Shown here in pieces: positions 1 to 23,456 of a DNA stretch of 64,000 nt (position 1 is its first letter; each line of letters begins with the position of its first letter). Location: assembly GCA_943372935.1 (NCBI GenBank), contig CALSAP010000015.1, forward strand, positions 1 through 64,000, in the 5' to 3' direction. The stretch is from Synechococcus sp. UW140. GTDB lineage: Bacteria; Cyanobacteriota; Cyanobacteriia; PCC-6307; Cyanobiaceae. The translations under genes and the position numbers were made by a program. Below the pieces are notes generated by a model. The model ran no database searches. It saw only the letters and a program-made list of their open reading frames with translations, and was not told where the DNA came from.

Positions 1-155
1 TCTGGATCGACGGTTACTACAACCGTGAGCGCCGTCACTCAACGATCGGCTACCTCAGCCCTATCGACTACGAGCAGCAGTACATCGCTGCCCGTACACT
101 CACCACCGCGAGGCCCTGATCACTGTCCACCGAATCGGGGCAACCCCAGCTGCTG
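1..155 (+). mobile_element. Right end of an IS3-family insertion sequence (element continues off the window's left edge)
   Basis: Frame 3 of 3..119 encodes WIDGYYNRERRHSTIGYLSPIDYEQQY..., the conserved C-terminal integrase motif of IS3-family OrfB transposases, and ends at a TGA at 117-119. About 35 bp of terminal sequence follows before homology to a flotillin gene begins at about 158. Confidence 0.6.
3..119 (+). CDS. IS3-family transposase OrfB, C-terminal fragment (5' partial)
   Basis: Own translation of frame 3: YYNRERRHSxxGYLSPxxYE signature; stop at 117-119. Confidence 0.8.
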   Translation, partial: WIDGYYNRERRHSTIGYLSPIDYEQQYIAARTLTTARP

Positions 156-157
156 CC

Positions 158-331
158 ACCTTTGAGCAGGCGATAGCCGATCATCCGGGTGTCGTCCCCA
201 TCGCGACGACCACGCAGTCCGTAGAAGATCAGCACTTGATTGGGCTGGCATACGGCATAGAAAGAACGGAATCCGAGCAGGGCGATGATGCTGCCGCCGG
301 ACATCAGCAGAAGGGTAATCAGTGCTGTCAT
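158..331 (-). pseudogene. Flotillin (SPFH) paralog, N-terminal 58-codon fragment truncated by the IS3 insertion
   Basis: The first 58 aa of the 68..331 ORF (LLGFRSFYAVCQPNQVLIFYGLRGRRDGDDTRMIGYRLLKGG) are paralogous to the N-terminus of the adjacent flotillin (FCFPNSRPNQILVIAGRRHRRSDGQTVGYRVITGG). Similarity stops exactly where the IS3 end begins. The start codon overlaps the stop of the upstream flotillin (ATGA). Confidence 0.55.
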
Positions 332-1728
332 GGTGTGGTCTCGGAGGTGAAGGAGGGGAAAGAAGGCGCAGGGGGATTGAGGGTGCCGATCACATCGATC
401 CCGAAGATGTCGCGCACCGCATCAAGGAAGGTACGCATCACGGCGGGATAGAGGGCCACCAGTTCGGCCAGGGATTCAGCGTTGCCGAACTCCAGAACAG
501 AGATGCGGCCAAGCTTCAGCTGCTCCGGCAGCAGTGCCACCTCGCCGAGGATCGTTTCCAGTTGCTGGAGCAGGAAGATCGTGGCGGCGTCCTCGCCAGC
601 GTCCTTCCAGATCTCGGCCAGCCGGTCATTGACCAAGGCCGAGGCCTTGGCGTTCTCGGCGGTGGGAGCCGCGGCCCCCTTGGCCAGCCATTGATCCGCC
701 TCCTGCCGCGCCTGGGCCGGCAGCACGATGTCGGCCTCCAGACGCTTGCGCTCCAACTCCGAGCGCAGGGCCTGCAGAACCTGTTGGGCGCGGGCACGGG
801 CTTCGCCGGCCGCCGCTTCTACCCGTTCCTCCGCCGACTGGGCCTTCTGCTTGAGCTGCGCACGGATCGTGCGCAGCCCATTCTGCTTCTGCTGGATGAT
901 CGTGCGCGCCTGGGTGCAGGCCACCTCGGCCCGCTGCTGGGCTTCGGCCTCGCGCCGATCGGCATCCCCCAGGCCCTGCGCTTCGGCGATGGCTGCATCC
1001 AGCAGCACCTCAGCCAGCACGGCCCTGCCAAGGGAGTCGAGGTAGTCGACCTTGTCGGTGACCCGCAGGATCTTGAACGTGTCGAGGCGGATGCCGAGCT
1101 TGGCCATGTCGGGCTGCACGATTTCCGCCACCTGATGGGCGAAGCGCAGGCGGTCCTCATTGACCTGCTCCGGCGTGAGATTGGCCACCAGCGAGCGCAG
1201 GCTGCCCTCGAGGGTCTTGCGCGAAACCTGCACCAACTCTCCGCCGTCATGGTGGAGAAACCGCTCGATCGCATTGCCCACACGGGCAGGGTCTGTGTCG
1301 ATCTTGATGCTGGCGATCGCCTCCACATCGATCGGCGTGCCGCCCTTCGCGTAGGCGTTCTCCACATGGATCATCACCGGTGTGGTTCGCACATCCATCC
1401 AGCTGCGGGTTTCCAGGACCGGCAAAGCAAAGGCCCTGCCACCTGTGATCACGCGGTAGCCCACCGTCTGACCGTCGCTGCGGCGATGGCGGCGACCGGC
1501 GATCACAAGAATCTGGTTGGGACGGCTGTTGGGAAAACAGAAGCGGTAGCCAAGCCCCAGCACAAGGGCCAGGGCCAGCAGCAGACCCGGCACCAGATGG
1601 CTCTGGAGATTGGCCTCGATGCGGGGGATGCCGGGGGTGGTGCCAGGAGGAGCTCCGGGCACCTGGGCCACCAGCAGTGGGGGTTCAAAGCGTTGTGGAA
1701 GGGTCATGGTGCTGGAAAGTGAGAGCAA
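328..1728 (-). CDS. Flotillin-like SPFH/band-7 domain protein
   Basis: N-terminal TM segment, SPFH core (GYRVITGG...FALPVLE...) and a long Ala/Glu/Gln/Arg-rich coiled-coil region typical of bacterial flotillins (FloT/YqiK). The equally long + strand ORF 322..1722 is a low-complexity antisense artefact. Confidence 0.85.
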   Translation of the reverse strand: MLSLSSTMTLPQRFEPPLLVAQVPGAPPGTTPGIPRIEANLQSHLVPGLLLALALVLGLGYRFCFPNSRPNQILVIAGRRHRRSDGQTVGYRVITGGRAFALPVLETRSWMDVRTTPVMIHVENAYAKGGTPIDVEAIASIKIDTDPARVGNAIERFLHHDGGELVQVSRKTLEGSLRSLVANLTPEQVNEDRLRFAHQVAEIVQPDMAKLGIRLDTFKILRVTDKVDYLDSLGRAVLAEVLLDAAIAEAQGLGDADRREAEAQQRAEVACTQARTIIQQKQNGLRTIRAQLKQKAQSAEERVEAAAGEARARAQQVLQALRSELERKRLEADIVLPAQARQEADQWLAKGAAAPTAENAKASALVNDRLAEIWKDAGEDAATIFLLQQLETILGEVALLPEQLKLGRISVLEFGNAESLAELVALYPAVMRTFLDAVRDIFGIDVIGTLNPPAPSFPSFTSETTP

Positions 1729-1768
1729 AGGGTTGGGTTGACAGCTCGCGTGCCGGCGCGCTGAGGGG

Positions 1769-2095
1769 TCAGCGGCCCATCCCGGCCAGCGACGCCACCC
1801 ACACGTCGCTGCCCCTGCGTTGCAGCACCATCACCCGCAGGCCCCTGGGCAACGGCGTGTTGTTGCTGTAGGCGGGAACGTCCATCAGGGCGCCCCTCAC
1901 CGTCAGGCGAACCAGACCGCGCTCCTGGGCGCTGCAGGGGAGGACGACCACGCCCACCTGGCCGATGAAGTCGGCATCGGTGACGAGGCTGTTGCCCACC
2001 TGGATGGCGAGGGCACGCCGCCAGAACAGCAGCAGCGCCAGGACGGCCAGGCCGGCCATGACGCCGAGGGCAAGGGCCAGAAGGTGGTGGGCCAT
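1769..2095 (-). CDS. NfeD-like small membrane protein (flotillin-associated)
   Basis: 108 aa with an N-terminal hydrophobic segment and a C-terminal beta-rich region, lying immediately upstream of and co-directional with the flotillin. The NfeD-flotillin operon arrangement is established knowledge. Confidence 0.6.
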   Translation of the reverse strand: MAHHLLALALGVMAGLAVLALLLFWRRALAIQVGNSLVTDADFIGQVGVVVLPCSAQERGLVRLTVRGALMDVPAYSNNTPLPRGLRVMVLQRRGSDVWVASLAGMGR

Positions 2096-2161
2096 GGCTT
2101 CGAGGTGGATGGGGGCGATGCCCCCGTCAACGTCCGTTGGTTCCTGCCAGGGCCGGCTGAT

Positions 2162-3265
2162 TCAGCTGCCACTGCAACCGCCACCCCCACAGCTGCTGCC
2201 GCCCCCGGCGCCGCAATCACCTCCCCCCCAGCTGCTCCCAGCACCACAGCTGTCGCCGCTGCCAGCGCCGCCACCCCAAGTGCCGGCCCCGCCGCCGCCG
2301 CAGTTGCCGATCCCGACCGACCGCCAGCTGAGGGTCCAGAAGCACTGCCACACGTTGTGCCGCATCGCTGCGACAAGGCCAGGACATGGGGTGTAAGCCT
2401 TCGCCAGGCTGGCCAGGGCAGGCATGGTGGCGATCACGCCCATTCCCCCCAAAGCCACCAGGCGCAGCGGACAAGCGGGATCACCCCCTTCGAGAGCGGG
2501 CTGGGGATTTCCCCTGGCCTGGCGGTGAACCTCAGCCCGGCAGCGATGGCCAACGGGCGTCAGCCACTCGGACCGGGCCAGGCACACGGCTGGAAGCACC
2601 AGGCTTAGAGCCAGAAGCGCCAAGGTTCCCTCCATCGGCCCCTGTTTGGGAAACTGGCTCAGAGCCGCCACGGCTTCCAGCAGCAGCAGCTGCAACGGCA
2701 GCCAGGGGAGCATCAGCAGCAGCAGTCGTCGCCGCTGCTGGCCGCGCGTCCGCCGCAGACCGTTCGCCTGCAGCGACCGGTTCAGGGCCGTGAGCTCCGA
2801 CACCACCGTGTTCGACCGCAGCAGTCGCTCCATCTGCATGGCGCGGTCCACGAAGCCTCGATGCCGGCTCAGATGGTGGGCACGGTCCGACGGCCCGCCG
2901 CGGCCGGACTCGTGGTGCAGCGGCCGGCCAAGCACCACGGGGCAGAACTCTTCCCAGTAGCGCCTCGAATCGATCAGGTGCAGGTGCCATGCCGCATCCA
3001 CTGCCCTCGAGGGCGTCACGGCAGCGTCGGCCACCACCGCCAGATAGACGAAGCGTCGGTACTCCTCCACCACCCGGCTGGCCTTCCCCAGCGGCCAGCG
3101 CTGAGCGCTGGCCAGGCGCCGCTCGAAGGGATGGGCCGCCGGGGTGGGATCAAATCGGTAGCGCTGCAGCCGCTCCCACAGGCAGGAATCGCCGCCAGGA
3201 AAGATGGATGGGGTCATGGCCGTCGACGCGGAAGGAGCACAACGCCCTCGGGGGGTGGGGGGCAT
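2162..3265 (-). CDS. GRDP/DUF1399-like protein with an internal hydrophobic segment and a C-terminal Gly/Cys-rich tail
   Basis: DAAWHLHLIDSRRYWEEF matches the D..WHTH.L.P..Y motif recalled for glycine-rich-domain proteins (DUF1399). The C-terminus is GGGGAGTWGGGAGSGDSCGAGSSWGGGDCGAGGGSSCGGGGCSGS. Same strand as the NfeD/flotillin genes. Confidence 0.5.
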   Translation of the reverse strand: MPPTPRGRCAPSASTAMTPSIFPGGDSCLWERLQRYRFDPTPAAHPFERRLASAQRWPLGKASRVVEEYRRFVYLAVVADAAVTPSRAVDAAWHLHLIDSRRYWEEFCPVVLGRPLHHESGRGGPSDRAHHLSRHRGFVDRAMQMERLLRSNTVVSELTALNRSLQANGLRRTRGQQRRRLLLLMLPWLPLQLLLLEAVAALSQFPKQGPMEGTLALLALSLVLPAVCLARSEWLTPVGHRCRAEVHRQARGNPQPALEGGDPACPLRLVALGGMGVIATMPALASLAKAYTPCPGLVAAMRHNVWQCFWTLSWRSVGIGNCGGGGAGTWGGGAGSGDSCGAGSSWGGGDCGAGGGSSCGGGGCSGS

Positions 3266-3484
3266 TTCTGCCTTCGTTCCACGCTTGCCGCCGTGATTCA
3301 GCCGGGGCCCAGGCCTGGATCCTGGAGCAGATCAGCCGCCTGACCGAAGCGTTCACGACCGGCGAAGCGGACCTGCATGGCTGGGGATGGCACGGGGAAG
3401 CTCTGCTCTGGGGGCAGCCTGTTGACCGCCTCTACCCTGACTAGATTCAGGCCCGCGACGAAATCGCCCCATTCCAGGGCCTGC

Positions 3485-3775
3485 ATGGTGCTTGCCAACC
3501 CCTCCGACGCCGCGGCCGCCCCGACCACCGGCAGCGCCCACGCCGGGACCAGCCCCAGCAGCCCGTCGACCGTGGCCGACAGCAGCCGCCTCTACGGCCT
3601 GGAGGGCTGGGGCGATCCCTACTTCACGGCGAATGCCCGGGGCCACGTGATGGTGCAGCCCCGCGGCGACCGGGGCGGGTCCCTCGATCTGGTGGAGCTG
3701 GTGCGGGAGCTGCAAGGCCGCGATCTCACCCTGCCCCCTCAGATGCGCTGCGACGACATCGTCGAAGACCAGCTC
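3485..3775 (+). pseudogene. Duplicated 5' fragment (about 97 codons) of arginine decarboxylase speA
   Basis: The translation (MVLANPSD...SRLYGLEGWGDPYFTANARGHVMVQPRGDRGGSLDLVELVRELQGRDLTLPPQMRCDDIVEDQL) aligns residue by residue with the N-terminus of the intact speA at 14228 (LYGLDRWGDPYFGVGARGNVMVQPRGERGGSLDLVELVRELQGRDLSLPLLIRFDDILEDRL). Nucleotide identity is about 85-90% over roughly 170 bp. Homology ends abruptly at 3775. Confidence 0.75.
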
Positions 3776-3776
3776 A

Positions 3777-4471
3777 TCAGAGCAGCAATCCGCGCCGCTG
3801 CAGGGGTTCCAGATCGACGATGCCCCAACCGCCCCCGTCCAGGTCCTCCACGATGCCCTGGCTTCGCAGTCTGCTGAGGGTCCGTGAGGCCGTTTCCCTG
3901 GCCAGACCGGCGAGAAGAGCCAGCTCACGCTGGGGCAGGGGGGGATCGATGCCGTGGCATCGGCGCCCGGGGCGCTGTGGCAGGCCAGATCCAGAAGCAC
4001 GGCCAGCATCCTGGTGGTGGCATCGGCGGTACGCAAGGTGAGTCGGCGGCTGAGGCTCTGCAGACGTTGAACTTCCAGGCGTGCCAGGGCAAGGCACAGC
4101 GCCGGGGACGTGTCCAACAGACGGCGGAACGGCCCGGCACGCAGGATCAGAACCTCGCAGGGGGTGAGCGTCACCACATCGGCGATGCGGCGGCCGGCAT
4201 GCAGCACCGCCATCTCTCCGCAGATGTCGCCGGGCCCGAGGAGCGACAGCACCACCTCGTCGCCGCCCACCCCGAAGCTGCGCACCTTGGCAAGGCCGGC
4301 GCCGATCAGCAACAGACCCTGCGACGCATCCTGCTCCAGCAACAGCAGCTGGTCTGCTGCGAAGGACAGCAGCCGATGCTGCTCGAGCAGCTGTTGACGC
4401 TCCGCCTCAGCCAGGTCGGCGAACAGCACCACACGGTCGAGGTGATCGTCACGCTCAGGACCGGTGGGCAT
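3777..4471 (-). pseudogene. Crp/Fnr-family transcription regulator (cNMP-binding domain plus HTH), frameshifted
   Basis: The cNMP-binding domain (GPGDICGEMAVLHAGRRIADVVTLTPCEVLILRAGPF...) reads in one frame from the ATG at 4469-4471. The DNA-binding HTH (PLPQRELALLAGLARETASRTLSRLRSQGIVEDLDG, ORF 3777..4097) is in another frame. The switch lies around 3950-3990, near a C7 run. Confidence 0.7.
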
Positions 4472-4567
4472 GGAACGCTCCGGCGCTGAATCAGCCAAAT
4501 GGACACCCTGGCTCCCATCCTGAAGGCCATGAGGCCAGGGCGCCCAAAACGATCGGGGGCCTGAGCC

Positions 4568-4583
4568 TGTGAGCGATGTCACA
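4568..4583. promoter_or_regulatory. Perfect CRP-type palindrome TGTGA-gcgatg-TCACA in the divergent crp / tpsA-1 intergenic region
   Basis: Seen directly: tgtgagcgatgtcaca at 4568-4583. It sits about 53 bp upstream of the tpsA-1 ATG (4637) and about 97 bp upstream of the divergent crp start (4471). It matches the established CRP/SyCRP consensus TGTGA-N6-TCACA. Confidence 0.5.
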
Positions 4584-4636
4584 GCAAAGGCGATCCTGCT
4601 TCGCTTCAATGACAAATCTAGGGCGAGCCTGGCTCC

Positions 4637-7600
4637 ATGACGCAGCCGCCACGATCAGCATGGCAGGCATCGACAGCATGCCGGAAAGCCACCCGGATCC
4701 TGGCGCTGGTGCTGGCTCCCCTGCTCGCCGGTCCGGCAGGGGCCCAGGTGTCGAGCGGTGGCCTGGGCACGCTGGTCAACGGCTCGGCGGAAAGCAGTTG
4801 CGGATCCGGCGCCTGTCGCGTGGAGGGCGGCACGGCCGCGGGCGCCAACCTGTTTCATCGCTTCCGGCAGTTCGACACCCGCGGTGGCATCAGCGGCGTC
4901 AGCATTGACAGCCGCGGGCTGGCCAATGTGATCGTGGGGGTGACCAACCCGGCTGGCACCTTCCTCAACCGGCCCCTGAGCCTGACCCAACAGGCCAACC
5001 TCTTCTGGCTCTCCCCTGGAGGCATCTGGGTGGGTCCCGGAGCAGACCTGGTGCGCGTGTCGAACCTGCTGCTCACCACGGCCACGGCGCTGCCGCTGGA
5101 GGGAGGTGCCACCTTCGACGCCCTGCGGACCACGGCGCAGGAAGCCTCCGGCTACCCGGGCGCGCCGTCAACGGGCTGGACCACCCTCACCTCCCTGGCC
5201 AGCCTGGCCGACCTGGGGCTGAAGGAACCCGGCCCGATCGTGCTGGCTGGCGGCCGGCTCAGGGTGGATCGGTCCCTGGTCCTGGATGGCGCCAACGGCG
5301 ACGTGCGGTCGCTGACGGGTGCGGGAAGCCGACTCGAAGCCGGCGAACGTGTGCGTCTCAGCGGTCGGGCCCTGGATCTCGACGCTCTCACAATCTCGGC
5401 GGGTGAGCCCGGGCAGCGGGGGCCGGTGATCCTCCAGACCACCAGCAGCGCAACCGGCGAGGACAGCGGGGCGATCCGCCTCTCGAACAGCCACCTGGAG
5501 GGGAGCAAGGTCATCCTCCGGGCCGGGGCGGTGACGGTGGCCGGCAGCACACTGGCGGCACCCAAGGGTGTGATCCGGCTGGAGAGCACCAACACCCGTG
5601 GGGACAACGGGATCCTGCTCCGCAACGCCCGTCTCGATGTAGGGGTGCACACCCTTGAGGATCTGCGCGCGGACGGATCGGTCACCGTCGAGAAGCAGGA
5701 TGGCGCCATCGTGCGCCAGTCGGCGCCCACACCTCTGATCCATCTGTTCTCCCAGGGAGATGTGCAGGTGGAGGCCGACTCCACCCTCACGGCCAGCCAG
5801 GATCTGGGGCCGATCCGGGCGGCGCTGCTCAAAGAGACGGGGGCGTCCCTGGCCGAGGGCGACGTGAAGCTTGCGGGCACCAGCGGCAACGTGGTGCTCG
5901 ATGCCGCTGGAAGGATCGGCGTGAGCCGCAGCAGGCTGGTGGCCGATGCCAGCGACAACCTGGCCGGCAACATCGCCCTGGTGGCCAGGGGCGGCGAGGG
6001 CAGAGGCGGCATCGGCATCGAGCGCAGCACGCTCTCGGCCAGCGGCGGCGCCGGATCGGGCGATATCCGGCTGAGCAGCAGCGACGGGATCACGATCACC
6101 GGCGCCACGCTGCGCACCGAGAGCAGCCACGGCCCGGGATCCCGTGAGGGCGGCATCGACTGGGCAACCGGCTATCCCTTTGCAGCCGGGGAGATCACTC
6201 TCAGCAATGATTCCCCGACCCGGCCCGTGCTGATCAACGGAAGCCGGCTCGAAGCCACCTACCACACCCGTGAGGGTGGGCTGCCGGTGGGTTTTCCCAA
6301 CCCAGACGATGGGGGCACGACGCAGGTTCCTTTCGTGGACCTTCACGATGATCGCGATCTGATCGAGCTCAGCTTCGACCAGACCCTGGATCCACCCAGG
6401 CTCGCCGGCATCTTTCCCCGCAGCACGGTGGCCATCATCAGCGCGGGTGGCATCTCCATCTCGAACGGGTCGACACTCGATGCCGGCAGCCATCCCGCAG
6501 GCAGACCCGACCTCCTCGAGGCCTTAGGAGGCCGGGTGCTGGTCGTGAACACCGGCACGGGGCTGGGAGCCGGCGCCCTGAGCATCACGGACTCCACGCT
6601 CCTGAGCCGGGTGGACAGCGCCAGCGGCATCCGCTTCCCCAACCCGGAATTCCCGGACTCTTCTGCGCAGGAGAGCCTGCCGATCGGCGAGCCGGGCAGC
6701 GTGCAGCTCTGGAGCGCCGGCTCCCTGCGCCTGAGCAACAGCTCCGTGGATGTGGGCGATGCCGGCCGGATCATCCGTGCCGGTGATGCCATCGGCCCAC
6801 CCCCTTCGCCCGTGCGAGACCCCTATGCGCCCCCCGGGAGCCCGGATCCCCCCACCGCCCAGGCCATCCTGGAGCGGCTCGCCCTTGACAGCCGGGGCGT
6901 GGGGGAGAGCGCGAGACAGACGGTGATCGTGGATCCCGATAACCGGGTGAAGGTGGTGACCACCGATCCTGATGGCGGAATCACGGTGCTGCGCGATCCG
7001 AGCCCTCAGCTCCTCACGACCTTGGTAGGGGAGGCGCGGGCAGCCCTGCTCCCCCGCGGTCTGCTGACACCCCCGCTGATCGTCGCGGCCGGCCCCGGCG
7101 TCGGCCCAGCCGACAGCAGCCGGATCATCACCCCGCTGCGGCGGGAGTCCACCGCGCCGGCTCTCGCCACCAGCAGCATCGTCTCCATGCCCATCTCGGT
7201 CTCAAGCCTGGAAGCGGCGGAGGCCAGCCGAGCTTTCGCGCACGCGGAGGAGCGCTCCCGGCAGGAGACCATCGCTGGCCTGGGATTGGAGGCAGGACAA
7301 GCAACGGCGCCACCCAACAGCGAACAACTGCAACGGCAGCTGCAGCGCATCAGTGCTGCCCTCTCCCAGCCCAGTCAGCACAGGGCGACCTCCTACCGGC
7401 CGGCCATCGTGTTGCTCAACCTCAGCCGACGCGCCGGGGCGGACGCCGCCCTGGATCTTCTCTACCTGCCCCCCAGCGGCCCGATGAAGGGGTGGCGCGT
7501 GGAGATGCCGGAAGCGCAGCTGAGGGGTTGGATCACCACCTTCCAGCGACAGCTCAGTCGCATGGAGCCGTTCGATGGCAGCAGCCAAGGTGCAGGTCGC

Positions 7601-8497
7601 CAGCTCTCCAACCATCTGTTCACCCCCCTGCTGCCGACGTTGCGGCACGACGGCATCACGGCCCTGCTGCTCAGCGTGGACCGGGGGCTGCAGGCCATTC
7701 CCTATGCGGCCCTGCCTCTGGACGAAGGACGCCCCCTGGGTGAGGCCTTCTCCCTCACCCTTACCCCTTCCCTGGGCCTCACGGCACTCGATGCGGCGTC
7801 GAACCCGTCCGCAGGCCGCATGTTGCTGGCCGGTACCAGCCGCTTCCGCAACGGGCTTGCCGATCTGCCCCTGGTCCGTCAGGAACTGGAAACGTTGGCA
7901 GCCGAGCATCCCGCCGACATGCTGCTCGACGACGCCTTCAGCAGCGCGGCCCTGCTGGACCAGGCCGGACGCCGCGAGTACCGGCGCGTGCACCTGGCCA
8001 GCCATGCCGAGTTCCGCCCTGGCCACCCCCCCATCGCCCGGCTCTTCACCGCCACAGGCGACGTGAACATCACCCAGCTGGGACGGCGCCTGCAGAGCGA
8101 TCCGGCCAGGGGGAACGTGGATCTGGTGAGCCTGAGTGCCTGCCGCACCGCCCTGGGTGACGAGAGCAGCGAACTGGGGCTGGTCGGCCTTGCCCTGCGC
8201 ACCGGCAGCCGCAGCGGCCTGGGCACCCTCTGGTTCGTGGACGATGCCGCCAGCGCCGCCTTCTTCGTGCACTTCTACCGCCAGCTGGCCCGGGGCCTGC
8301 CCAAGGACGAGGCTCTCCAGTCCACCCGAAGGGCGTTCCGAAGCGGGGAGATCCGGGTCAGGGGCGACAGCCTGGTGGGCCCCGATGGCAGCCACCTGAT
8401 CCAGGGCCTGTCTCCGGGCGACAGGGCGCGCTTCGCCGAGGGCCTGAGCCATCCCTACTTCTGGGCCGGGGTGGTTCTCTCCGGCTCACCCTGGTAG
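4637..8497 (+). CDS. TpsA-type secreted exoprotein: N-terminal TPS (hemagglutination-activity) domain, beta-helical repeats and a C-terminal CHAT (caspase-like) domain
   Basis: Signal-like N-terminus. TPS motifs: [21 protein letters not shown] and ANLFWLSPGGIWVG (the NPNGI-type motif). The C-terminal CHAT signature has His (VHLASHAEF) and Cys ([13 protein letters not shown]) plus GLVGLALRTGSRSGLGTLWFVDD. Confidence 0.9.
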   Translation: MTQPPRSAWQASTACRKATRILALVLAPLLAGPAGAQVSSGGLGTLVNGSAESSCGSGACRVEGGTAAGANLFHRFRQFDTRGGISGVSIDSRGLANVIVGVTNPAGTFLNRPLSLTQQANLFWLSPGGIWVGPGADLVRVSNLLLTTATALPLEGGATFDALRTTAQEASGYPGAPSTGWTTLTSLASLADLGLKEPGPIVLAGGRLRVDRSLVLDGANGDVRSLTGAGSRLEAGERVRLSGRALDLDALTISAGEPGQRGPVILQTTSSATGEDSGAIRLSNSHLEGSKVILRAGAVTVAGSTLAAPKGVIRLESTNTRGDNGILLRNARLDVGVHTLEDLRADGSVTVEKQDGAIVRQSAPTPLIHLFSQGDVQVEADSTLTASQDLGPIRAALLKETGASLAEGDVKLAGTSGNVVLDAAGRIGVSRSRLVADASDNLAGNIALVARGGEGRGGIGIERSTLSASGGAGSGDIRLSSSDGITITGATLRTESSHGPGSREGGIDWATGYPFAAGEITLSNDSPTRPVLINGSRLEATYHTREGGLPVGFPNPDDGGTTQVPFVDLHDDRDLIELSFDQTLDPPRLAGIFPRSTVAIISAGGISISNGSTLDAGSHPAGRPDLLEALGGRVLVVNTGTGLGAGALSITDSTLLSRVDSASGIRFPNPEFPDSSAQESLPIGEPGSVQLWSAGSLRLSNSSVDVGDAGRIIRAGDAIGPPPSPVRDPYAPPGSPDPPTAQAILERLALDSRGVGESARQTVIVDPDNRVKVVTTDPDGGITVLRDPSPQLLTTLVGEARAALLPRGLLTPPLIVAAGPGVGPADSSRIITPLRRESTAPALATSSIVSMPISVSSLEAAEASRAFAHAEERSRQETIAGLGLEAGQATAPPNSEQLQRQLQRISAALSQPSQHRATSYRPAIVLLNLSRRAGADAALDLLYLPPSGPMKGWRVEMPEAQLRGWITTFQRQLSRMEPFDGSSQGAGRQLSNHLFTPLLPTLRHDGITALLLSVDRGLQAIPYAALPLDEGRPLGEAFSLTLTPSLGLTALDAASNPSAGRMLLAGTSRFRNGLADLPLVRQELETLAAEHPADMLLDDAFSSAALLDQAGRREYRRVHLASHAEFRPGHPPIARLFTATGDVNITQLGRRLQSDPARGNVDLVSLSACRTALGDESSELGLVGLALRTGSRSGLGTLWFVDDAASAAFFVHFYRQLARGLPKDEALQSTRRAFRSGEIRVRGDSLVGPDGSHLIQGLSPGDRARFAEGLSHPYFWAGVVLSGSPW

Positions 8498-8553
8498 CGC
8501 TTCTCTCCTGCCGCGAGATCCGCAGTCCCCAACGTTCCGCTGCCCCAACCGCG

Positions 8554-9786
8554 ATGCCTTCCCCCCGCCGCCGCAGTTCACACCCCCGCACCGCCTGGCT
8601 CATTGGCTGCCTGGCCGTCCTTGTGCTCACCCTTCTGGGGGCCTGGACGGAACCCGCCCAGGCCCAGGACGAGTACTGCGTGAGAACCAATGCGCTCTGG
8701 ACGACACCGTGCACAACATCTGTACGGGTGGACAGCCTGATGGACACCTATTTCTGGTCGCCCAAGAGCCAACCAGCCTCCAACATAAGCATCAGCATTG
8801 GGCCCACTCGAAATGTGAAAGTGTCAAAGATGACACTTCACGGGCCAAGCACGATGCGCCTGAATGCAACAGGCTCATTGCAACGGGAAACACTGATCGG
8901 CAGTCTTGGCAATAACACCCTGACGGGTGCCGGCGGCGGCGACACCTTCGTGATCGGCAACGAAACATCCGTCACCAGGAACCTGGCAAACTGCTCCCCC
9001 ACGAGCATCAACGACTGCGTCTACCGCATCAGCCCTGGCCAGGAAACAGATACCGTGAACATCAGTGGATTTAATGGATCTCCCGATGGGGTCGATATCG
9101 TTTACATCAACAAATGTCTTCAGCTCGTGGCCACTGGGAATCCTGGAAAGGGTGGCGACGCCATCCGTTCAGCCGTCGCTTCCCCCGGGCTCGACAACCA
9201 GGGATTCCCCCAGCAGCCCATTCCCCTCACCGAACCCATGGCGGTGAACTGCCGCATGGGGGGAACTTCCCTGATCCGTTCGTTCACCGGTCAGCTATCC
9301 GATGGCAACGCAGGCCTCTTCGAATCGCTGTGCACAAAGCTAAGGAATATCCTTCGTTTCATCCACTTCAAGCTGACCGGTCGGCTTCCCCTCTATGTCG
9401 GCACACCGCGGATCGTTCAGCCAGCCAGCTTCGGGGGGGCGGAGGGCGATCGCATCGTCATCGAAGCGGAGGGCCTCCGCTTCAATGACGCTCCCCTCAC
9501 CCCTGAGCAGACGGAGGTGTTCGTGCAGGCGCGCAACCGAGACCCCGTCGCCGAGGGCAGGGCACTGATCTACCACCAGGAGATGGGCGTGCTGGCCGCC
9601 TATGGGACCGACCGGGCTGCCTACGGAAGCGAGGCCAATCCCGGCAGCGTGATCGCCCAGCTGGTGCGGCCGGGAGGACGGGCCCTGACGATTGACGCGG
9701 GAATCAGCCCGGACGCGCTCGACTGGGTGAGCCTGGTCCCGCCCGTTCCCCCCGGAGCGGGGGAATCCCCTTCTCCGGCCGGCTGA
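8554..9786 (+). CDS. Hypothetical secreted protein with an RTX-like GGxGxD calcium-binding motif (low-GC insert)
   Basis: Signal peptide (MPSPRRRSSHPRTAWLIGCLAVLVLTLLGAWTEPAQA). One hemolysin-type nonapeptide-like motif (GNNTLTGAGGGDTFVIG). Local GC is clearly lower than its surroundings (roughly 8700-9400). It sits between tpsA-1 and tpsB-1. Confidence 0.6.
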   Translation: MPSPRRRSSHPRTAWLIGCLAVLVLTLLGAWTEPAQAQDEYCVRTNALWTTPCTTSVRVDSLMDTYFWSPKSQPASNISISIGPTRNVKVSKMTLHGPSTMRLNATGSLQRETLIGSLGNNTLTGAGGGDTFVIGNETSVTRNLANCSPTSINDCVYRISPGQETDTVNISGFNGSPDGVDIVYINKCLQLVATGNPGKGGDAIRSAVASPGLDNQGFPQQPIPLTEPMAVNCRMGGTSLIRSFTGQLSDGNAGLFESLCTKLRNILRFIHFKLTGRLPLYVGTPRIVQPASFGGAEGDRIVIEAEGLRFNDAPLTPEQTEVFVQARNRDPVAEGRALIYHQEMGVLAAYGTDRAAYGSEANPGSVIAQLVRPGGRALTIDAGISPDALDWVSLVPPVPPGAGESPSPAG

Positions 9787-9792
9787 GCGCCG

Positions 9793-11496
9793 ATGCTGCT
9801 CCTGCTGGCCCAGCTCGTTGCCCCGCCCCTGCAGCCAGGGCCGGCTCGACTGCCCGGGCCGGCCACCGAAGAGCAGCGAGACGGACCCACACGGCCGCCG
9901 CAGCCCCCACGGCTGCTGCGCCTCCCCCCCGATGAGCCGGCCCCCGGGAGCGAACCACCGCCGGGCGGTCCCCTGGAACTGCCCCCCCCAGCGGGGTCCG
10001 AGGGCCTGCTTCCTCAGGTGCATGGGCTGAATCGCTACGACGCCAAGGAGCTGCACCGGATCCTGGCTCCCTGCGGCGCCATCACCGATGCGGCGACCAG
10101 GCTGCGGGCCTGCGCCGCCGCCCTCAGCAGCCGGCTGTCGGCGGACGGCTACGTCAACAGCAGGGTGTACCCCCTGGCTGATCCCCCCCCAGGCCGGCTG
10201 GAGGTGGTGGAAGGGAGGATCGCCGAGGTGCGGATCGAAAGTGACAGCCCGCGGCTGGCCCGTCGGCTGCGCCAGCTGCTGCTGCCCCTCAGGGGCACGG
10301 TGCTGCACCTGCCCAGCCTGGAGCGCACCGTGGCCCAGCTGCAACAGCTGGGCGGCGTGGGGCAACTGGAGGTGAGCCTCAACCGGCTGGGCAGTGACTC
10401 CACCCGTGCCGTGCTGGACGTGAGCGCCGAACCGGCCCCGCAGCCGTTAAGGGGCGAGATCTCCCTGCGCAACGATGGCAACAGCGGCAGCGGTCAGTTC
10501 CGTGCCCTGGCCACCCTGGTGAAGACCGATCTGGTCCTCGATGGCGACATCCTGCTCCTGTTCGGCGAGCTCGATGGCGACCAGAATCCCGACCTGGGCT
10601 ACAGCCTCGCGTCGCTCAGCTACAGCCTGCCCCTGGGTGATCGCCTGAGCCTCACCACAGCCTTCGGGGCCAGCCGCCGCAACCTGGTCGAAGCCCTGGG
10701 ACCTTCGGAAGACCTGTCGTTCCGACAGTTCCAGTTGCTAAGCCAGCTGGAGGTGACCCTGGCCTCATCGCTCACCAGGCGCTGGTATGGCTTCGCCGCT
10801 CTGAGCCTGAACCGAACCGACTCCTACCTGGCGGGCCAAGCCCTGCCACTGGTGACCGGAGCCGGTGCCGACGGGTGGGTTGGCAACGGCTTCCTGCGGG
10901 TCGGACTGGGGGCAGAGGGCGGGGGCGAGCGACTTCAGTGGGCCGCCAGCGTCTTTGGTTTGCAGGGGATCGCCTGCTTCAGCACCGCCGAACAGCTCCA
11001 GAACCAGGCCTTTTTCGGCATCCGGCCCGGTGAGGCTCGCGCTGCGGGAGGCCAGATCTACGGCCAGTGGCGCATCGGGCCACGCTGGCAGCTGGAGCTG
11101 CGCGCCGCCTTCCAGCAGGCCTTCACGCCCCTCACCAGCCCGATGGGCCTGAGCCTCGGCAGCGACAACGGGCTTCGGGGTCTCCCGGGCCAGGTGGTGA
11201 GTGGCGACAGCGGTCTCCTGGGAGCGCTCGAACTGAGCTGGACCGCCTGGCGCAAGCACCAGGCGGAGATCCAGCTGGTGCCGTTTCTCGGAGCGGGCCA
11301 GGTCCACACCCGTTTTCCCGAGGGCAGTTTCAGCGAAAGCATCGCCGCAGGTGGCCTGCTGGTGCGCTGGCTCCAGGGCCGCCACTGGCAGATGGAACTG
11401 GGCTGGGTCTCCCAGTTCGGCGATGGGTCCCGGTCGTACTGGAACGACTGGCTCCTGGGCAGCGGTCTCTACTCCAAGCTGAGTTACCGCTTCTGA
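9793..11496 (+). CDS. TpsB transporter (ShlB/FhaC/HecB family; POTRA plus Omp85-like barrel), partner of TpsA-1
   Basis: Polypeptide-transport POTRA region, a beta-barrel with alternating hydrophobic residues and a C-terminal ...SKLSYRF ending in aromatic F. It is paralogous to the ORFs at 34746 and 41797, and all three share the N-terminus M(S)LLLLAQLVAPPLQ.GP.RLP. Confidence 0.85.
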   Translation: MLLLLAQLVAPPLQPGPARLPGPATEEQRDGPTRPPQPPRLLRLPPDEPAPGSEPPPGGPLELPPPAGSEGLLPQVHGLNRYDAKELHRILAPCGAITDAATRLRACAAALSSRLSADGYVNSRVYPLADPPPGRLEVVEGRIAEVRIESDSPRLARRLRQLLLPLRGTVLHLPSLERTVAQLQQLGGVGQLEVSLNRLGSDSTRAVLDVSAEPAPQPLRGEISLRNDGNSGSGQFRALATLVKTDLVLDGDILLLFGELDGDQNPDLGYSLASLSYSLPLGDRLSLTTAFGASRRNLVEALGPSEDLSFRQFQLLSQLEVTLASSLTRRWYGFAALSLNRTDSYLAGQALPLVTGAGADGWVGNGFLRVGLGAEGGGERLQWAASVFGLQGIACFSTAEQLQNQAFFGIRPGEARAAGGQIYGQWRIGPRWQLELRAAFQQAFTPLTSPMGLSLGSDNGLRGLPGQVVSGDSGLLGALELSWTAWRKHQAEIQLVPFLGAGQVHTRFPEGSFSESIAAGGLLVRWLQGRHWQMELGWVSQFGDGSRSYWNDWLLGSGLYSKLSYRF

Positions 11497-13452
11497 ATGG
11501 CGCGTCGCCCCATGGCCGAGTCGACACCATGGGCGCTTCAGCCCCCGTTCCTCCGGCATTCGCCCTTCCGGCTTCCCCTGCGGCCATGGCTGCCCTACGC
11601 CTTCGCCGCACTGCTGCTGGTGGCCCTGCAGCGCGGTGGCGTCACCGAAACGGTGAACCTGCTGCTCCATGACATCGCCACCCAGCTGCGGCCGGCTCCC
11701 GATGGCGCCGCCACACCGGTGCGGGTGATCGGCATCAACGAGCCCGACCTCAGAAGGCTGGGCTGGCCGATCGACGACGACCTGCTGAGCGAGGCGATCC
11801 GCCGGCTGGAGCGCGCTGGCGTGCGTGCCATCGGCCTCGATCTGTTTCGAGACATCGGCGTGGGCAACAAGCCGGGTCGGCTACGGGCCCTGGCAGCCAG
11901 TGATCCGCGGCTGGTGTCGGTGTTCAGCGCCGTGGACGGCATCGGTGTGATCCCCGGAACGCCGCCGCAGCGCCGCGCCTACAACGATGTCCTGGTGGAC
12001 CCTGATGGGGTGGTACGCCGTGATCTGGTCCATGTGCGGGGCCAGGGGCCGCACATGGTGGCCCTTCCGATGCGGCTGCTGGAGGTGGCATCGGGCGACG
12101 ATCGGCTGCGCCGCGCCCTGGAGCGGGATCCTGCCGCAGTGCCCCACCTCGGCGAGAACTCCGGCGGGTACAGCCATTTCGATCATGGCGGCGTGCAGCG
12201 GATGCTGGCGTTCCAGCGACCCGGCAGCATCCCCACCTGGTCGCTCAGCCAGCTGCTGGCGGACGAGGTGCCCGAGGCCAGCCTGCGCAACGCGATCGTG
12301 CTGATCGGCAACGCGGCCCCCTCGCTGCGGGATGGTTTCCGGGTGCCCTTCGGAAGGATCGGGCAGGGTCAGGCGCTGCGCATGCCCGGCGTGGAGGTGC
12401 ATGCCCATCGGCTGGCGGCCCTGCTGGCCCTGGAGGCAGGACGGCCGATCGGCCTGCGTGTGGCGCCGGGCTGGCTGAACAGCCTGCTGCTGGTGGCTGG
12501 AATCGGCATCGGGATCGGCCTTGGGGAAGGTGTGAGAACACTGAGTCGCAGCCAGTTGGCCGTGGCGGTCGCAGGGGGGGTGGTGGTGCTGGCCAGCGGG
12601 GTGGCCCTGGCGCAGGGGTTCTGGTTCGATGCCGCCCTGCCGCTGGCCGGACTGGGCGTGATGGCCAGCGCGGCATGGATCCGCAGGGCCGGCGAACAGC
12701 AGCGCCAACGGGAACAGCTCCTGCAGCTGCTCAGGCAGACCACCTCGCCGGCGGTGGCCCGTGAACTGTGGCGACAGCGTGATGTGCTGCTCGAGGGCGG
12801 TCGCTTCCCCGGACGCACGACGGAGGTGACGGTGCTGTTCACCGACATCGAGCGCTTCACCGGCGTCGCCGAACTGCTGGACCCCCATACCCTGCTCAAC
12901 TGGCTGAACAGGGGCATGGCCGCGATGGTCGGCCCCGTGGAGGATGAGGGGGGCCTGGTGAACAAGTTCACCGGCGACGGCCTGCTGGCGGTGTTCGGAG
13001 CGCCGTTGGGCAGGGGACCTGCCGTCGATGCCGCAGCAGCGGTACGGGCCGCCAGTGGCATCCGCCGTGCGGTGATGGCGCTCAATGCAAACCTGGCAGA
13101 AGAAGGATTGCCGGCGATGCAGCTGCGGGTGGGGGTGCACAGCGGCCGTGTCCTGACCGGCTCGGTGGGCACCCCGAACCGGTGGGAATTCGGCGTGGTC
13201 GGCGACACGGTGAACTGCGCCGCCCGCATTGAAGCCCTGGACATGGGCTCCACCATTGCGCCGTTCTGCCGGGTGCTGATCTCAGACTCCACCCGCGCTC
13301 TGGTGGGGGAAACGGTTCAGGGACGCTGGTTCTGCTGGGGCAAAAGGGCGCTGTCGGGACGTTCCTCGGCGGTGGAGATCTGGGAGCTGATGGAGGGGCC
13401 TGAACCCGAGGCGCTGGAGGCTTCGAGCGGCTCGCAACGAACGGGGAGCTGA
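11497..13452 (+). CDS. CHASE2 extracellular sensor / class III adenylate-guanylate cyclase
   Basis: N-terminal periplasmic CHASE2-like region, TM helices, then the cyclase catalytic core (VLFTDIERFTGVAE...NKFTGDGLLAVFGAP...VGVHSGRVLTGSVGT...VGDTVNCAARIE). The ATG follows immediately after the tpsB-1 stop codon (TGAATG). Confidence 0.9.
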   Translation: MARRPMAESTPWALQPPFLRHSPFRLPLRPWLPYAFAALLLVALQRGGVTETVNLLLHDIATQLRPAPDGAATPVRVIGINEPDLRRLGWPIDDDLLSEAIRRLERAGVRAIGLDLFRDIGVGNKPGRLRALAASDPRLVSVFSAVDGIGVIPGTPPQRRAYNDVLVDPDGVVRRDLVHVRGQGPHMVALPMRLLEVASGDDRLRRALERDPAAVPHLGENSGGYSHFDHGGVQRMLAFQRPGSIPTWSLSQLLADEVPEASLRNAIVLIGNAAPSLRDGFRVPFGRIGQGQALRMPGVEVHAHRLAALLALEAGRPIGLRVAPGWLNSLLLVAGIGIGIGLGEGVRTLSRSQLAVAVAGGVVVLASGVALAQGFWFDAALPLAGLGVMASAAWIRRAGEQQRQREQLLQLLRQTTSPAVARELWRQRDVLLEGGRFPGRTTEVTVLFTDIERFTGVAELLDPHTLLNWLNRGMAAMVGPVEDEGGLVNKFTGDGLLAVFGAPLGRGPAVDAAAAVRAASGIRRAVMALNANLAEEGLPAMQLRVGVHSGRVLTGSVGTPNRWEFGVVGDTVNCAARIEALDMGSTIAPFCRVLISDSTRALVGETVQGRWFCWGKRALSGRSSAVEIWELMEGPEPEALEASSGSQRTGS

Positions 13453-14036
13453 GCCGGCAGACCCTCGGCCAGGTGCTGGAGGGAGAAGGCCCCCAGCAAT
13501 GGAGCGGTGGCCACGGACGTGCCGCAGGCCCTGGCCAGAATCCTCAACTGGTCCGTCACCTGTCGATCCTCCCCCCTCGGCGCGGTCGAGGGTGTCGGCG
13601 GCTCGAGCCAGGTTCGGGCCGGTGGCGCAGTGGCGCTCTCCATGTCGGCGCCGCAGAGGGGAAAGCTCTCCCACAGCAGTCCACGGGACACGGCAGGAAT
13701 GGTCAGCAGCCTCACCCCCGTGGGCCTGGCGGCGAGAGTCCACTCACCGATGAGGCCCAGCTTCACCACCAGTGGAGTGGGGCGGGGAGCGGTGCCCTCC
13801 AACAGGGCGATGGTGCTGCCGGGACCGGGTGCGAAGCGGCCGCTGCTCGGCACGAGGTGAGCCAGACGGCGTGACTCGCAAGGGTCGCGGCTGCCACCGG
13901 ACTCCCTGTTCATGGGAAAGGATTTCGTGCGATCCTTGGCGACGGCTGCTGGGATGGACAGGCCAGCAGAGAGATTCGCCAGCAGTCCGACCGCCAGCGC
14001 CAGGTAGATCGTTCGGGAAAGAGCGGCTGAGTCCAT
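13317..14036 (-). CDS. Small secreted protein, DUF928-like paralog family member (copy 1, degenerate)
   Basis: Paralogous to the ORFs at 28435..29220 and 36997..37653 (shared RLAHLVPSS, W.S..C and a C-terminal LPVRC). The family motif FPGRRVGGGTRGEC is degraded here to FPMNRESGGSRDPCE. A 3' extension past the family's normal stop overlaps the convergent cyclase by 136 nt. Confidence 0.5.
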   Translation of the reverse strand: MDSAALSRTIYLALAVGLLANLSAGLSIPAAVAKDRTKSFPMNRESGGSRDPCESRRLAHLVPSSGRFAPGPGSTIALLEGTAPRPTPLVVKLGLIGEWTLAARPTGVRLLTIPAVSRGLLWESFPLCGADMESATAPPARTWLEPPTPSTAPRGEDRQVTDQLRILARACGTSVATAPLLGAFSLQHLAEGLPAQLPVRCEPLEASSASGSGPSISSQISTAEERPDSALLPQQNQRP

Positions 14037-14111
14037 CGCAGCCGGTGCTAGGTGAAGAGACCATTATGCAGTTCTGATAGCCTCATTGGCCCCCAGCCGG
14101 TCACGGCATGT

Positions 14112-14127
14112 AGTGATCCTGATCACA
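14112..14127. promoter_or_regulatory. CRP-like palindrome AGTGA-tcctga-TCACA in the speA / DUF928-like divergent intergenic region
   Basis: Seen directly at 14112-14127; 9 of 10 half-site matches to TGTGA-N6-TCACA. It sits about 100 bp upstream of the speA ATG and about 75 bp from the divergent DUF928-like start. Confidence 0.35.
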
Positions 14128-14227
14128 GGATCGGGCGAAGTCATCGCAGCGGTCCTCATCGCCGCCCCTCGACAAGCCTGCCAGCTTCACAGGGAGGCGT
14201 GGGCAGCATCGCTAGATTCCATCGGCA

Positions 14228-16264: not shown

Positions 16265-16266
16265 CC

Positions 16267-23452: not shown

Positions 23453-23456
23453 CGGC

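What the first reader, a model, noticed from the sequence alone, without database searches (positions are those of the whole stretch)
3485..3775. Segmental-duplication scars: a copy of the first about 97 codons of speA bounds TPS-CHAT locus 1
The 3485-3775 copy is co-oriented with the intact speA at 14228, 10.5 kb away. Everything between them is accessory: crp pseudogene, tpsA-CHAT, RTX-like ORF, tpsB, cyclase and DUF928-like gene. The geometry (5'-gene fragment, insert, intact gene) is what site-specific integration into the 5' end of a gene, or an unequal-crossover duplication, would leave. Upstream homology (ctagattc...) extends a few tens of bp beyond the start codons. The boundary is sharp at 3775/3776.
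Basis: seen in the sequence. Interest (0 to 1): 0.6.

Follow-up and report, generated by a model that had tools for sequence, protein, structure and literature searches.

The report
Leftover speA gene start at recombination joint
A dead copy of the first 97 codons of the arginine decarboxylase gene marks where two blocks of optional genes were joined by sloppy, non-site-specific recombination in a freshwater picocyanobacterium; it is a fairly ordinary recombination scar, not the footprint of an integrating mobile element.

Summary
Window 3485-3775 is a promoter-bearing copy of speA codons 1-97, co-oriented with the intact gene. That gene's true start is 14252, not 14228. The copies are 79-82% identical over about 200 nt, and the homology ends sharply at 3775.

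Three related contigs (L089, L090, L091) carry the same 10.4-kb TPS-CHAT segment at about 90% identity. In them it lies directly between ndk and speA, with no speA fragment. The segment contains no integrase, and the window has no tRNA gene.

The fragment is a different speA allele, with its own upstream region and N-terminus. It is attached to unrelated cargo on its left: Band7, NfeD and a UCP032817-like gene. The join lies 1 nt past the crp stop codon, at an ACCnGCTC microhomology.

My best model is illegitimate recombination, either homology-facilitated or by unequal crossover. It stacked two alternative cargo alleles of the variable ndk-speA locus in tandem. A metagenome contig (L081) shows the same architecture with ndk visible. 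Interest is modest.

The parts
328..3265 (-). Left-hand cargo that carries the fragment at its right end. It holds SPFH/Band7 (328-1728), an NfeD-like small membrane protein (1769-2095) and a UCP032817-like protein with a glycine-rich tail (2162-3265).
   Evidence: Pfam Band_7, E = 3.8e-20. PF27765 on the precomputed gene call. Codon-position GC favours the minus-strand ORFs. None of the three genes occurs within 10 kb of speA in any fetched locus, and ndk is absent from the whole window.
3441..3448 (+). CTAGATTC motif, 36 nt upstream of the fragment's ATG. It holds a -10-like TAGATT. It belongs to the speA leader and promoter region retained by the fragment.
   Evidence: The motif is conserved at the same place upstream of speA in nearly all relatives aligned. 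The strict sigma-70 scan found no full promoter, so the promoter role is inferred.
3485..3775 (+). speA' fragment: codons 1-97 of a biosynthetic arginine decarboxylase allele. It is truncated before the PLP-binding domain. The ORF reads on for 33 more codons, antisense to crp, to the stop at 3875-3877.
   Evidence: In the intact protein the Pfam PLP domain begins at residue 107, so the fragment has no catalytic domain. GC3 is 0.92.
3731..3775 (+). Junction-proximal cluster of substitutions. LPLLIRFDDILEDRL has become LPPQMRCDDIVEDQL.
   Evidence: Six residues here are never seen in 104 speA relatives. None of the preceding 47 aligned codons has such a residue.
3768..3776 (.). Recombination joint with microhomology. 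The window has GACCAGCTC|ATCAG. The speA consensus is GACCGGCTCGAG. The L090 spacer is CACCGGCTCATCAG.
   Evidence: Homology to L090 starts at window 3768 and homology to speA ends at 3775.
3777..4471 (-). crp/fnr-family pseudogene, the first gene of the TPS-CHAT segment. It is full length (232 aa) if one frameshift at the G7 run 3938-3944 is repaired. Its stop codon is at 3779-3777, 1 nt from the joint.
   Evidence: cNMP_binding domain. Homologues are 228-237 aa with an HTH domain. An independent Logan assembly, possibly of the same reads, has the same sequence.
3776..14211 (+). TPS-CHAT cargo segment: crp pseudogene, tpsA-CHAT (4637-8497), an unknown ORF (8554-9786), tpsB (9793-11496), a CHASE2-cyclase (11497-13452) and an unknown ORF on the minus strand (13317-14036).
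   Evidence: Pfam domains. The same segment at 89-90% identity lies between ndk and speA in L089, L090 and L091. It is absent from L001 and L003-L006.
14212..14321 (+). Segment-linked speA promoter region, leader and codons 1-23 of the intact gene. This haplotype is shared with the other carriers of the TPS-CHAT segment.
   Evidence: Informative sites switch from L002-like to L001-like between 14315 and 14322. L090 and L089 share the N-terminus ADPPS..IPD.A..GRS.
14252..16264 (+). Intact speA, 670 aa. It has the Orn_Arg_deC_N, helical-bundle and C-terminal domains.
   Evidence: It is 93-96% identical in nucleotides to the L001 group from 14322 on.

Best explanation
The fragment is the scar of an illegitimate, microhomology-associated recombination at the variable locus between ndk and speA.

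In picocyanobacteria the ancestral layout is ndk(-) - short spacer - speA(+). In about a third of lineages the spacer holds cargo of very different kinds. The speA promoter, leader and variable N-terminus travel with that cargo as one haplotype.

In this genome two such haplotypes are stacked head to tail.
- The left unit holds the Band7/NfeD/UCP032817-like cargo, its own speA promoter and codons 1-97.
- The right unit holds the crp-TPS-CHAT-cyclase cargo, its own speA promoter and 5' end, and the rest of speA.

The joint connects codon 95-97 of the left unit's speA to a point 48 nt inside the right unit's left edge, 1 nt past the crp stop. It lies at the short shared string ACCGGCTC.

I consider three routes:
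- The most likely route is homology-facilitated illegitimate recombination. Incoming or sister-chromosome DNA is anchored by homology in or beyond speA, and its other end is joined without homology.
- The second is a single crossover with a circularised fragment.
- The third is a tandem duplication whose left cargo was later swapped.

Shown here: the joint, the microhomology, the fragment-free carriers and the distinct alleles. Inferred: the route, and the position of ndk to the left of the window.

The stub cannot make an enzyme. It keeps a conserved promoter-like motif and start codon, so it may still drive transcription antisense into the decaying crp gene. That too is inference.
For: 1. 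L089, L090 and L091 carry the same TPS-CHAT segment with ndk directly on its left and no fragment. The segment's arrival therefore did not create the fragment.
2. The fragment and the intact copy are different alleles. Codons 1-35 and the upstream DNA differ. The fragment's leader resembles L009, L013, L014 and L016, while the intact gene's leader is L002/L090-like.
3. In aligned codons 1-47 the fragment diverges from relatives just as a functional speA does. At codon positions 1 and 2 the divergence is 0.11, against 0.13 for the intact copy. At position 3 it is 0.40 against 0.43. No residue is novel. Most of its divergence therefore predates the truncation.
4. There is microhomology at the joint.
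5. There is no integrase, tRNA or IS at the joint. The only transposase, an ISAs1 type, is at 19.9-21.2 kb.
6. The locus is variable. Of 82 loci with ndk upstream of speA, 55 have a short spacer and 27 have inserts of 0.5-10.7 kb.
7. There is an independent parallel in L081. It reads ndk - spacer - 5.3 kb of cargo - speA'(71 codons) | GGCCGC microhomology | copy of the ndk-proximal spacer motif - other cargo. Further stubs occur in L083-L086 and in L088/L110.
8. Homology-facilitated illegitimate recombination is an established route in naturally transformable bacteria (PMC2884548, section 14, citing de Vries & Wackernagel 2002, Prudhomme et al. 2002 and Meier & Wackernagel 2003).
Against: - ndk is not in the window. 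The DNA to the left of position 1 could not be fetched, so 'left unit = cargo between ndk and speA'' is unverified here.
- No relative of the left cargo or of the fragment's allele was found. Neither a donor nor an ancestral layout 'UCP032817-like gene next to intact speA' has been seen.
- The homologous anchor of the event cannot be located. The haplotype switch at 14316-14322 is shared with L090, so it is not specific to this event.
- The microhomology is imperfect in the present sequence, matching at 7 of 8 positions.
- The mutation cluster in the last 45 nt is unexplained.
- In two cases (the window and L081) the partner breakpoint lies within 50 nt of the ndk-proximal motif. That is closer than random breakage would predict.
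Confidence: 0.6

Rival explanations
1. Integrase-mediated, site-specific integration of the TPS-CHAT segment into the 5' end of speA. The element would bring a replacement 5' end and displace the resident one as the fragment.
For: The geometry fits: fragment, insert, intact gene. The intact gene's promoter and first 23 codons do travel with the segment. speA 5' stubs recur in other picocyanobacteria, with breakpoints confined to codons of about 50-97.
Against: - The same segment occurs in three contigs with no stub and with ndk at its left edge.
- There is no recombinase gene in or beside the segment.
- The repeats are only 79-82% identical. Their longest exact stretch is a part of speA that is conserved in all lineages.
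- The stub is not the allele expected for a displaced resident: it is 84-86% identical to its own clade.
- The stubs in other genomes have different end points and different partners.
- There are no tRNA genes.
Confidence: 0.05
2. A tandem duplication arose within one chromosome. The duplicated unit ran from the spacer through the TPS-CHAT segment to speA codon 97. Its left copy's cargo was later replaced, by homologous recombination, with the Band7/NfeD/UCP cargo and its linked speA 5' allele.
For: The joint (end of speA' to start of the segment) is exactly what a tandem-duplication join point looks like, and it has microhomology. Cargo at this locus does appear to be exchanged between lineages: the segment is present in L090 but absent from its close relatives L001-L006, which are 93-97% identical in the flanks.
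Against: It needs two events. No trace of a left copy of the TPS-CHAT segment remains upstream of the fragment. The replacement crossover would have to fall inside the 291-nt stub.
Confidence: 0.2
3. The stub is kept because it is useful. It could be a portable promoter and leader giving antisense control of crp or read-through into neighbouring cargo, or the source of a small N-terminal SpeA peptide.
For: The promoter-like motif, start codon and an open frame of 130 codons are intact. No unusual residue occurs in aligned codons 1-47, and GC3 is 0.92. Stubs in other lineages also keep the motif and the ATG.
Against: The target, crp, is itself a pseudogene here and decays independently in L090 and L089. 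The L110 copy of another stub has an in-frame stop. The carriers L089-L091 do without a stub. The intact state is equally explained by recent origin. No expression data are available.
Confidence: 0.08
4. Assembly chimera: the joint is a mis-join of two strains at conserved speA sequence.
For: The source is probably a metagenome-derived or short-read assembly. speA codons 60-80 are nearly identical among strains.
Against: - An independent Logan assembly of run ERR9580620 is identical to window 120-14471 across the joint.
- The joint is not in the conserved stretch. It lies at a point where speA homology ends and unrelated DNA begins.
- The stub's allele is not that of the intact gene on the same contig.
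Confidence: 0.04

Closest known systems
Homology-facilitated illegitimate recombination (HFIR) junctions, as described for Acinetobacter baylyi, Streptococcus pneumoniae and Pseudomonas stutzeri (reviewed in PMC2884548)
   Same: Novel DNA is joined at one end through a few bases of microhomology. There is no recombinase, IS or att site. A neighbouring conserved gene (speA) is available as the homologous anchor. The result is a truncated resident gene next to foreign cargo.
   Different: No experiment and no donor are available here. The homologous anchor point cannot be mapped. Both recombining partners seem to be alleles of the same variable locus, so the outcome is stacking of two cargo blocks rather than a simple insertion-deletion.
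Tandem-duplication join points (RecA-independent, short-homology joins)
   Same: Head-to-tail order: the end of the unit (speA codon 97) is fused to the start of the unit (the spacer just left of crp). The joint has microhomology. It leaves a 5' gene stub with its promoter upstream of the intact gene.
   Different: The two units do not share cargo, and their speA parts are only about 80% identical. A plain duplication is therefore excluded without a second, replacement event.
Partial-tRNA repeats flanking tycheposons and other integrase-borne islands of marine picocyanobacteria (bioRxiv 10.1101/2020.12.28.424599)
   Same: A fragment of a conserved gene marks the inner border of stacked cargo in a genomic island hotspot. 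Successive events could push older cargo further from the intact gene.
   Different: Those elements carry tyrosine recombinases, target tRNA or tmRNA genes, and leave about 40-nt near-identical att repeats. Here there is no recombinase and no tRNA. The repeat is 291 nt and diverged, and the same cargo occurs elsewhere without any repeat.

Membership tests
Integrase-mediated integrative element (island, prophage or tycheposon type) | Recombinase (tyrosine or serine integrase) gene inside the element, usually next to one end | tested here: not met
   Pfam and NCBIfam scans of all ORFs in 3353-14036 give crp, TPS+CHAT, ShlB, CHASE2+cyclase and two unknowns. These six genes fill the segment, leaving no room for an integrase.
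Integrase-mediated integrative element (island, prophage or tycheposon type) | Near-identical direct repeats (att core) at both ends | tested here: not met
   The copies are 79-82% identical. The longest exact run lies in a stretch conserved in all speA genes.
Integrase-mediated integrative element (island, prophage or tycheposon type) | Other carriers of the element show the same pair of repeats, and empty sites show one uninterrupted target with the same flanks | tested here: not met
   L089, L090 and L091 carry the segment without the left repeat and with ndk as left flank. Empty sites (L001, L003-L006) have ndk, not the window's left flank.
Integrase-mediated integrative element (island, prophage or tycheposon type) | Excision to a circle and re-integration | not testable with these tools
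   Needs PCR or read-level data.
Illegitimate or homology-facilitated illegitimate recombination junction | Short microhomology (3-10 nt) shared by both parental sequences exactly at the joint | tested here: met
   ACCGGCTC occurs in the speA consensus and in the L090 spacer. The window has ACCAGCTC at 3768-3775. The parallel joint in L081 lies at GGCCGC.
Illegitimate or homology-facilitated illegitimate recombination junction | No mobile-element machinery or repeats at the joint | tested here: met
Illegitimate or homology-facilitated illegitimate recombination junction | A homologous anchor on the other side of the incoming DNA | tested here: inconclusive
   speA and its downstream cyclase are 93-96% identical to the L001 group, against 88-92% further right. 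The only mapped switch, at 14316-14322, is shared with L090.
Tandem duplication | Head-to-tail joint: end of the unit fused to the start of the unit | tested here: met
   speA codon 97 is fused to DNA that in L090 lies 48 nt into the ndk-side edge of the segment.
Tandem duplication | Two copies of the same unit | tested here: not met
   The left unit holds Band7, NfeD and UCP, not TPS-CHAT. No other repeat was found in 1-15000.
Functional biosynthetic arginine decarboxylase (SpeA) paralogue | PLP-binding barrel and C-terminal domains, and full-length relatives of the same type | tested here: not met
   The fragment covers only profile positions 7-79 of 636. The PLP domain starts at residue 107 of the intact protein. 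The database search returned only contig-end partials and other stubs.

The most novel reading that the evidence does not exclude
The ndk-speA spacer of freshwater picocyanobacteria may be a dedicated cargo-stacking locus. Under this reading a recurrent, still unrecognised mechanism repeatedly joins speA codons of about 50-97 to the first 50 nt next to the ndk promoter motif. Candidates are a fragile or transcription-collision site between two divergent promoters, or a trans-acting recombinase. The events would leave promoter-bearing speA stubs that then serve as portable promoters or homology arms for later cargo exchange.
Probability: 0.1. Interest if true: 0.6.

Novelty: new member of a known kind. 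Interest (0 to 1): 0.3.

Why it matters
The case shows, at base-pair resolution, how optional gene blocks can pile up at one chromosomal hotspot in picocyanobacteria without any mobile-element machinery. These organisms have few classical mobile elements. Two alleles of a variable locus were fused through a few shared bases, leaving a gene stub as the only trace.

It is also a caution for island annotation. A 'gene fragment - insert - intact gene' geometry does not by itself indicate site-specific integration. Here the decisive test was a comparison with carriers of the same insert.

The recurrence of speA stubs in several lake populations suggests that the ndk-speA locus is worth a systematic look.

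Tried and rejected
- I looked for the left continuation of the contig, to see whether ndk lies left of the Band7 cargo. The Logan contig ends at window position 120. The 87-aa ORF at 68-331 is not on record. The cluster look-up gave no accession.
- I looked for relatives of the left cargo. None was found in the 115 fetched loci. A metagenome scan with the UCP032817-like protein found nothing.
- I looked for the fragment's parental speA allele. The best metagenome matches are only 54-64% identical where they span most of the 84 residues, and up to 80% only over the conserved C-terminal part. All but L110, another truncated stub (discussed in the full report), belong to speA genes that run full length or to the contig end.
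- P0022/L082 looked like another stub but is only a frameshifted full-length gene in a contig labelled 4x.
- I tested whether the last 45 nt of the fragment come from the L090 spacer rather than from speA. The speA alignment is clearly better, with score 56 against 30 in the same global-alignment scoring of the ~110-nt junction region 3690-3800. I rejected the idea, but the shared 'CCTsAGATGC' remains odd.
- The identity gradient along the intact speA cannot serve as evidence for an att-type crossover at 14522. The haplotype switch is at 14316-14322 instead, and L090 shares it.
- Rfam, tRNA, promoter/terminator and repeat scans around both copies gave nothing beyond the repeat itself.
- A literature search for speA as an attachment site found nothing relevant.

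Full report
**Source and observation**

The window comes from a freshwater Cyanobium/Synechococcus-type picocyanobacterium with 67% G+C. Its speA is 93-95% identical in protein to several lake MAGs and to Cyanobium sp. Cruz CV13-4-11.

- Region 3575-3770 matches 14327-14522 at 81.7% identity over 197 nt, E = 2e-47.
- The repeat finder gives 208 nt at 79% identity, spaced 10,752 nt apart.
- From the ATG at 3485 the fragment encodes 97 codons that align with the start of SpeA. It hits the speA models of NCBIfam at profile positions 7-79 only.
- The PLP-binding domain of the intact protein starts at residue 107, so the fragment lacks every catalytic part.
- The true start of the intact gene is the second ATG, 14252. 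The 670-aa gene calls and the alignments agree on this.
- The shared CTAGATTC lies at 3441-3448 and 14212-14219. It is conserved upstream of speA in nearly all relatives. It contains a -10-like TAGATT, although the strict promoter scan reported nothing.

**What lies around it**

To the left are three minus-strand genes: SPFH/Band7, an NfeD-like gene and a UCP032817-like gene.

To the right the first gene is a crp/fnr-family gene on the minus strand. After repair of one frameshift at a G7 run (3938-3944) it gives a 232-aa protein, the same length as its 228-237-aa homologues. Its stop codon is at 3779-3777, so the speA homology ends 1 nt beyond it.

After crp come, in order:
- tpsA-CHAT
- an ORF of unknown function
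- tpsB
- a CHASE2-adenylate/guanylate cyclase
- a minus-strand ORF of unknown function
- the intact speA

No integrase fits in this segment. There is no tRNA gene in the window and no Rfam hit in 1-20000.

**The decisive comparison**

In most relatives ndk(-) lies immediately upstream of speA(+), and close relatives L001 and L003-L006 lack the TPS-CHAT segment.

Three contigs carry the same segment:
- L089, an ENA scaffold from the same population as L002
- L090, from a JGI metagenome
- L091, from a JGI metagenome

L090 aligns with window 3768-18148 in one HSP at 90% identity. In all three the segment lies directly between ndk and speA, and tblastn finds only the intact speA. The fragment is therefore not a by-product of the arrival of the TPS-CHAT segment.

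**Whose 5' end is it?**

The window's intact gene carries a segment-linked haplotype up to 14315: promoter region, leader and codons 1-23. This haplotype is shared with L002/L089 and L090. From 14322 onward the gene is L001-like. The variable 5' end of speA thus travels with the cargo upstream of it.

The fragment has a third, unrelated version of this 5' end and leader. It resembles L009, L013, L014 and L016 in the leader. It is contiguous with the Band7 cargo.

Across its first 47 aligned codons the fragment differs from 104 relatives just as a working speA does:
- divergence at codon positions 1 and 2 is 0.11, against 0.13 for the intact copy
- divergence at position 3 is 0.40, against 0.43
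- no residue is unknown among the relatives

Its divergence therefore arose mostly while it was part of a functional gene in another lineage or allele, not by decay of a local duplicate. The last 15 codons are the exception. They hold six residues never seen in relatives, a mutation cluster next to the joint that I cannot explain.

**The joint**

At the joint the window reads GACCAGCTC|ATCAG, the speA consensus reads GACCGGCTCGAG, and the L090 spacer reads CACCGGCTCATCAG. The two parents share ACCGGCTC at the crossover.

In L090 this point lies 48 nt to the right of the conserved ndk-proximal motif ...CTGCCGCTTGGCAAGC. All lineages diverge after that motif. The window therefore lacks ndk, the motif and the first 48 nt of the L090-type segment. 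ndk is nowhere in the 64 kb.

**A variable locus, and parallels**

Of 82 loci in which ndk is seen upstream of speA, 55 have a short spacer and 27 have inserts of 0.5-10.7 kb of many kinds.

A protein search with the fragment returned further speA stubs inside contigs.
- L081 reads ndk - spacer - cyclase/FecR/OMP cargo - speA' of 71 codons. This is followed by a second copy of the ndk-proximal motif, joined at a GGCCGC microhomology, and then by other cargo: GerE and HpsJ. This is the architecture I infer for the window, seen from the ndk side.
- L083-L086 hold two stubs tail to tail within a toxin-antitoxin cluster. They occur in at least nine contigs from several samples.
- L088 and L110 share another stub joint, and L110 has an in-frame stop.
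- L082 is only a frameshift.
- None of the 80 GTDB loci has a second stub within 10 kb.

**Mechanism**

I commit to illegitimate, microhomology-associated recombination that fused two alleles of the ndk-speA variable locus head to tail. The most likely route is homology-facilitated illegitimate recombination. In it, one end of incoming or sister DNA is anchored by RecA-type homology in or beyond speA, and the other end is joined without homology. This process is established in transformable bacteria (PMC2884548).

A tandem duplication followed by replacement of the left cargo, or single-crossover integration of a circularised fragment, would give the same joint. The present data cannot separate these routes.

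Integrase-mediated integration is rejected. So is the comparison with partial-tRNA repeats at tycheposons (bioRxiv 10.1101/2020.12.28.424599). There is no recombinase, the repeats are not near-identical, some carriers lack the repeat, and the stubs elsewhere have different end points and partners.

An assembly artefact is unlikely. An independent Logan assembly is identical across the joint.

**Limits**

- The DNA left of the window could not be obtained.
- No relative of the left cargo or of the fragment's allele was found.
- ndk to the left, and the parental layout, therefore remain predictions.
- The breakpoints cluster in the first ~100 codons of speA. This could be a bias of my search, which returned only short proteins, or selection against longer fragments. 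I do not treat it as evidence for a special mechanism.

**Verdict**

The scar is real and its geometry was well described. It is an ordinary kind of recombination scar at a cargo hotspot, not an integration site. I rate it as a new member of a known kind, of modest interest.

Noticed in passing
window 18149-22375: A second insert of about 4.2 kb, just downstream of the speA-cyclase pair. It is absent from L001-L006, L002 and L090. It holds an ISAs1-family transposase split into two ORFs (19931-20671 and 20668-21216). It also holds a beta/gamma-crystallin-domain ORF at 18559-20103 on the minus strand.
   Followed up: partly
window 14316-14322: Haplotype switch inside the intact speA. The promoter, leader and codons 1-23 are shared with the TPS-CHAT carriers (L002/L089, L090). 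The rest of the gene is L001-like. The cargo's right boundary is therefore inside the gene, not at its start.
   Followed up: yes
window 3731-3775: The last 15 codons of the stub carry six residues never seen in 104 speA relatives, while the preceding 47 codons carry none. 'CCTCAGATGC' at 3737-3746 also resembles 'CCTGAGATGC' at a similar distance from the crp stop in L090. The cause is unknown: mutagenic repair, patchy template switching or chance.
   Followed up: partly
L083 4388-4760 (also L084-L086): Two different speA 5' stubs, each with its CTAGATTC motif and ATG, are joined tail to tail inside a PIN/PhdYeFM toxin-antitoxin cluster. The DNA beyond them is the inverted upstream region of speA of an L014-like genome. 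The arrangement occurs in at least nine contigs from several samples.
   Followed up: partly
L081 10001-10240; L088 118-450 and L110 2431-2720: Two more independent speA stubs both break within 2 nt of each other, after ...GAGCTGCAGGG (the ELQG codons). The L081 stub is joined to a copy of the ndk-proximal spacer motif at a GGCCGC microhomology. In L088 the stub is followed by DNA that lies upstream of speA in L011.
   Followed up: partly
ndk-speA spacer in loci L001-L115: The spacer between the divergent ndk and speA genes is a recurrent insertion locus. 55 of 82 loci have a short spacer and 27 hold 0.5-10.7 kb of varied cargo: cyclases, FecR, TPS genes and toxin-antitoxin pairs. All lineages diverge right after the conserved motif CTGCCGCTTGGCAAGC next to ndk.
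   Followed up: partly
window 3777-4471 (-); L090 9214-9822; L089 9380-9700: The crp-like regulator at the left end of the TPS-CHAT segment is decaying independently in every carrier. The window has a frameshift at a G7 run. L090 has a 45-nt and a 1-nt deletion. L089 has larger deletions that remove the stop codon.
   Followed up: yes
window 4637-8497, 29601-34646, 37647-41609; tpsB at 9793-11496, 34746-36479, 41797-43491: The 64-kb window holds three paralogous TPS-type loci. The pairs are 65-68% identical in DNA. The largest ORF contains a tandem-repeat array at 31125-31965. CHASE2-cyclase paralogues lie at 11497-13452, 16267-18147 and about 26600-28260.
   Followed up: no
window 14322-18148 versus 22376-29000: The speA-cyclase block is 93-96% identical to the L001 group, whereas core genes a few kb further right are only 88-92% identical. 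This suggests a separate recombination tract covering speA and the cyclase.
   Followed up: partly
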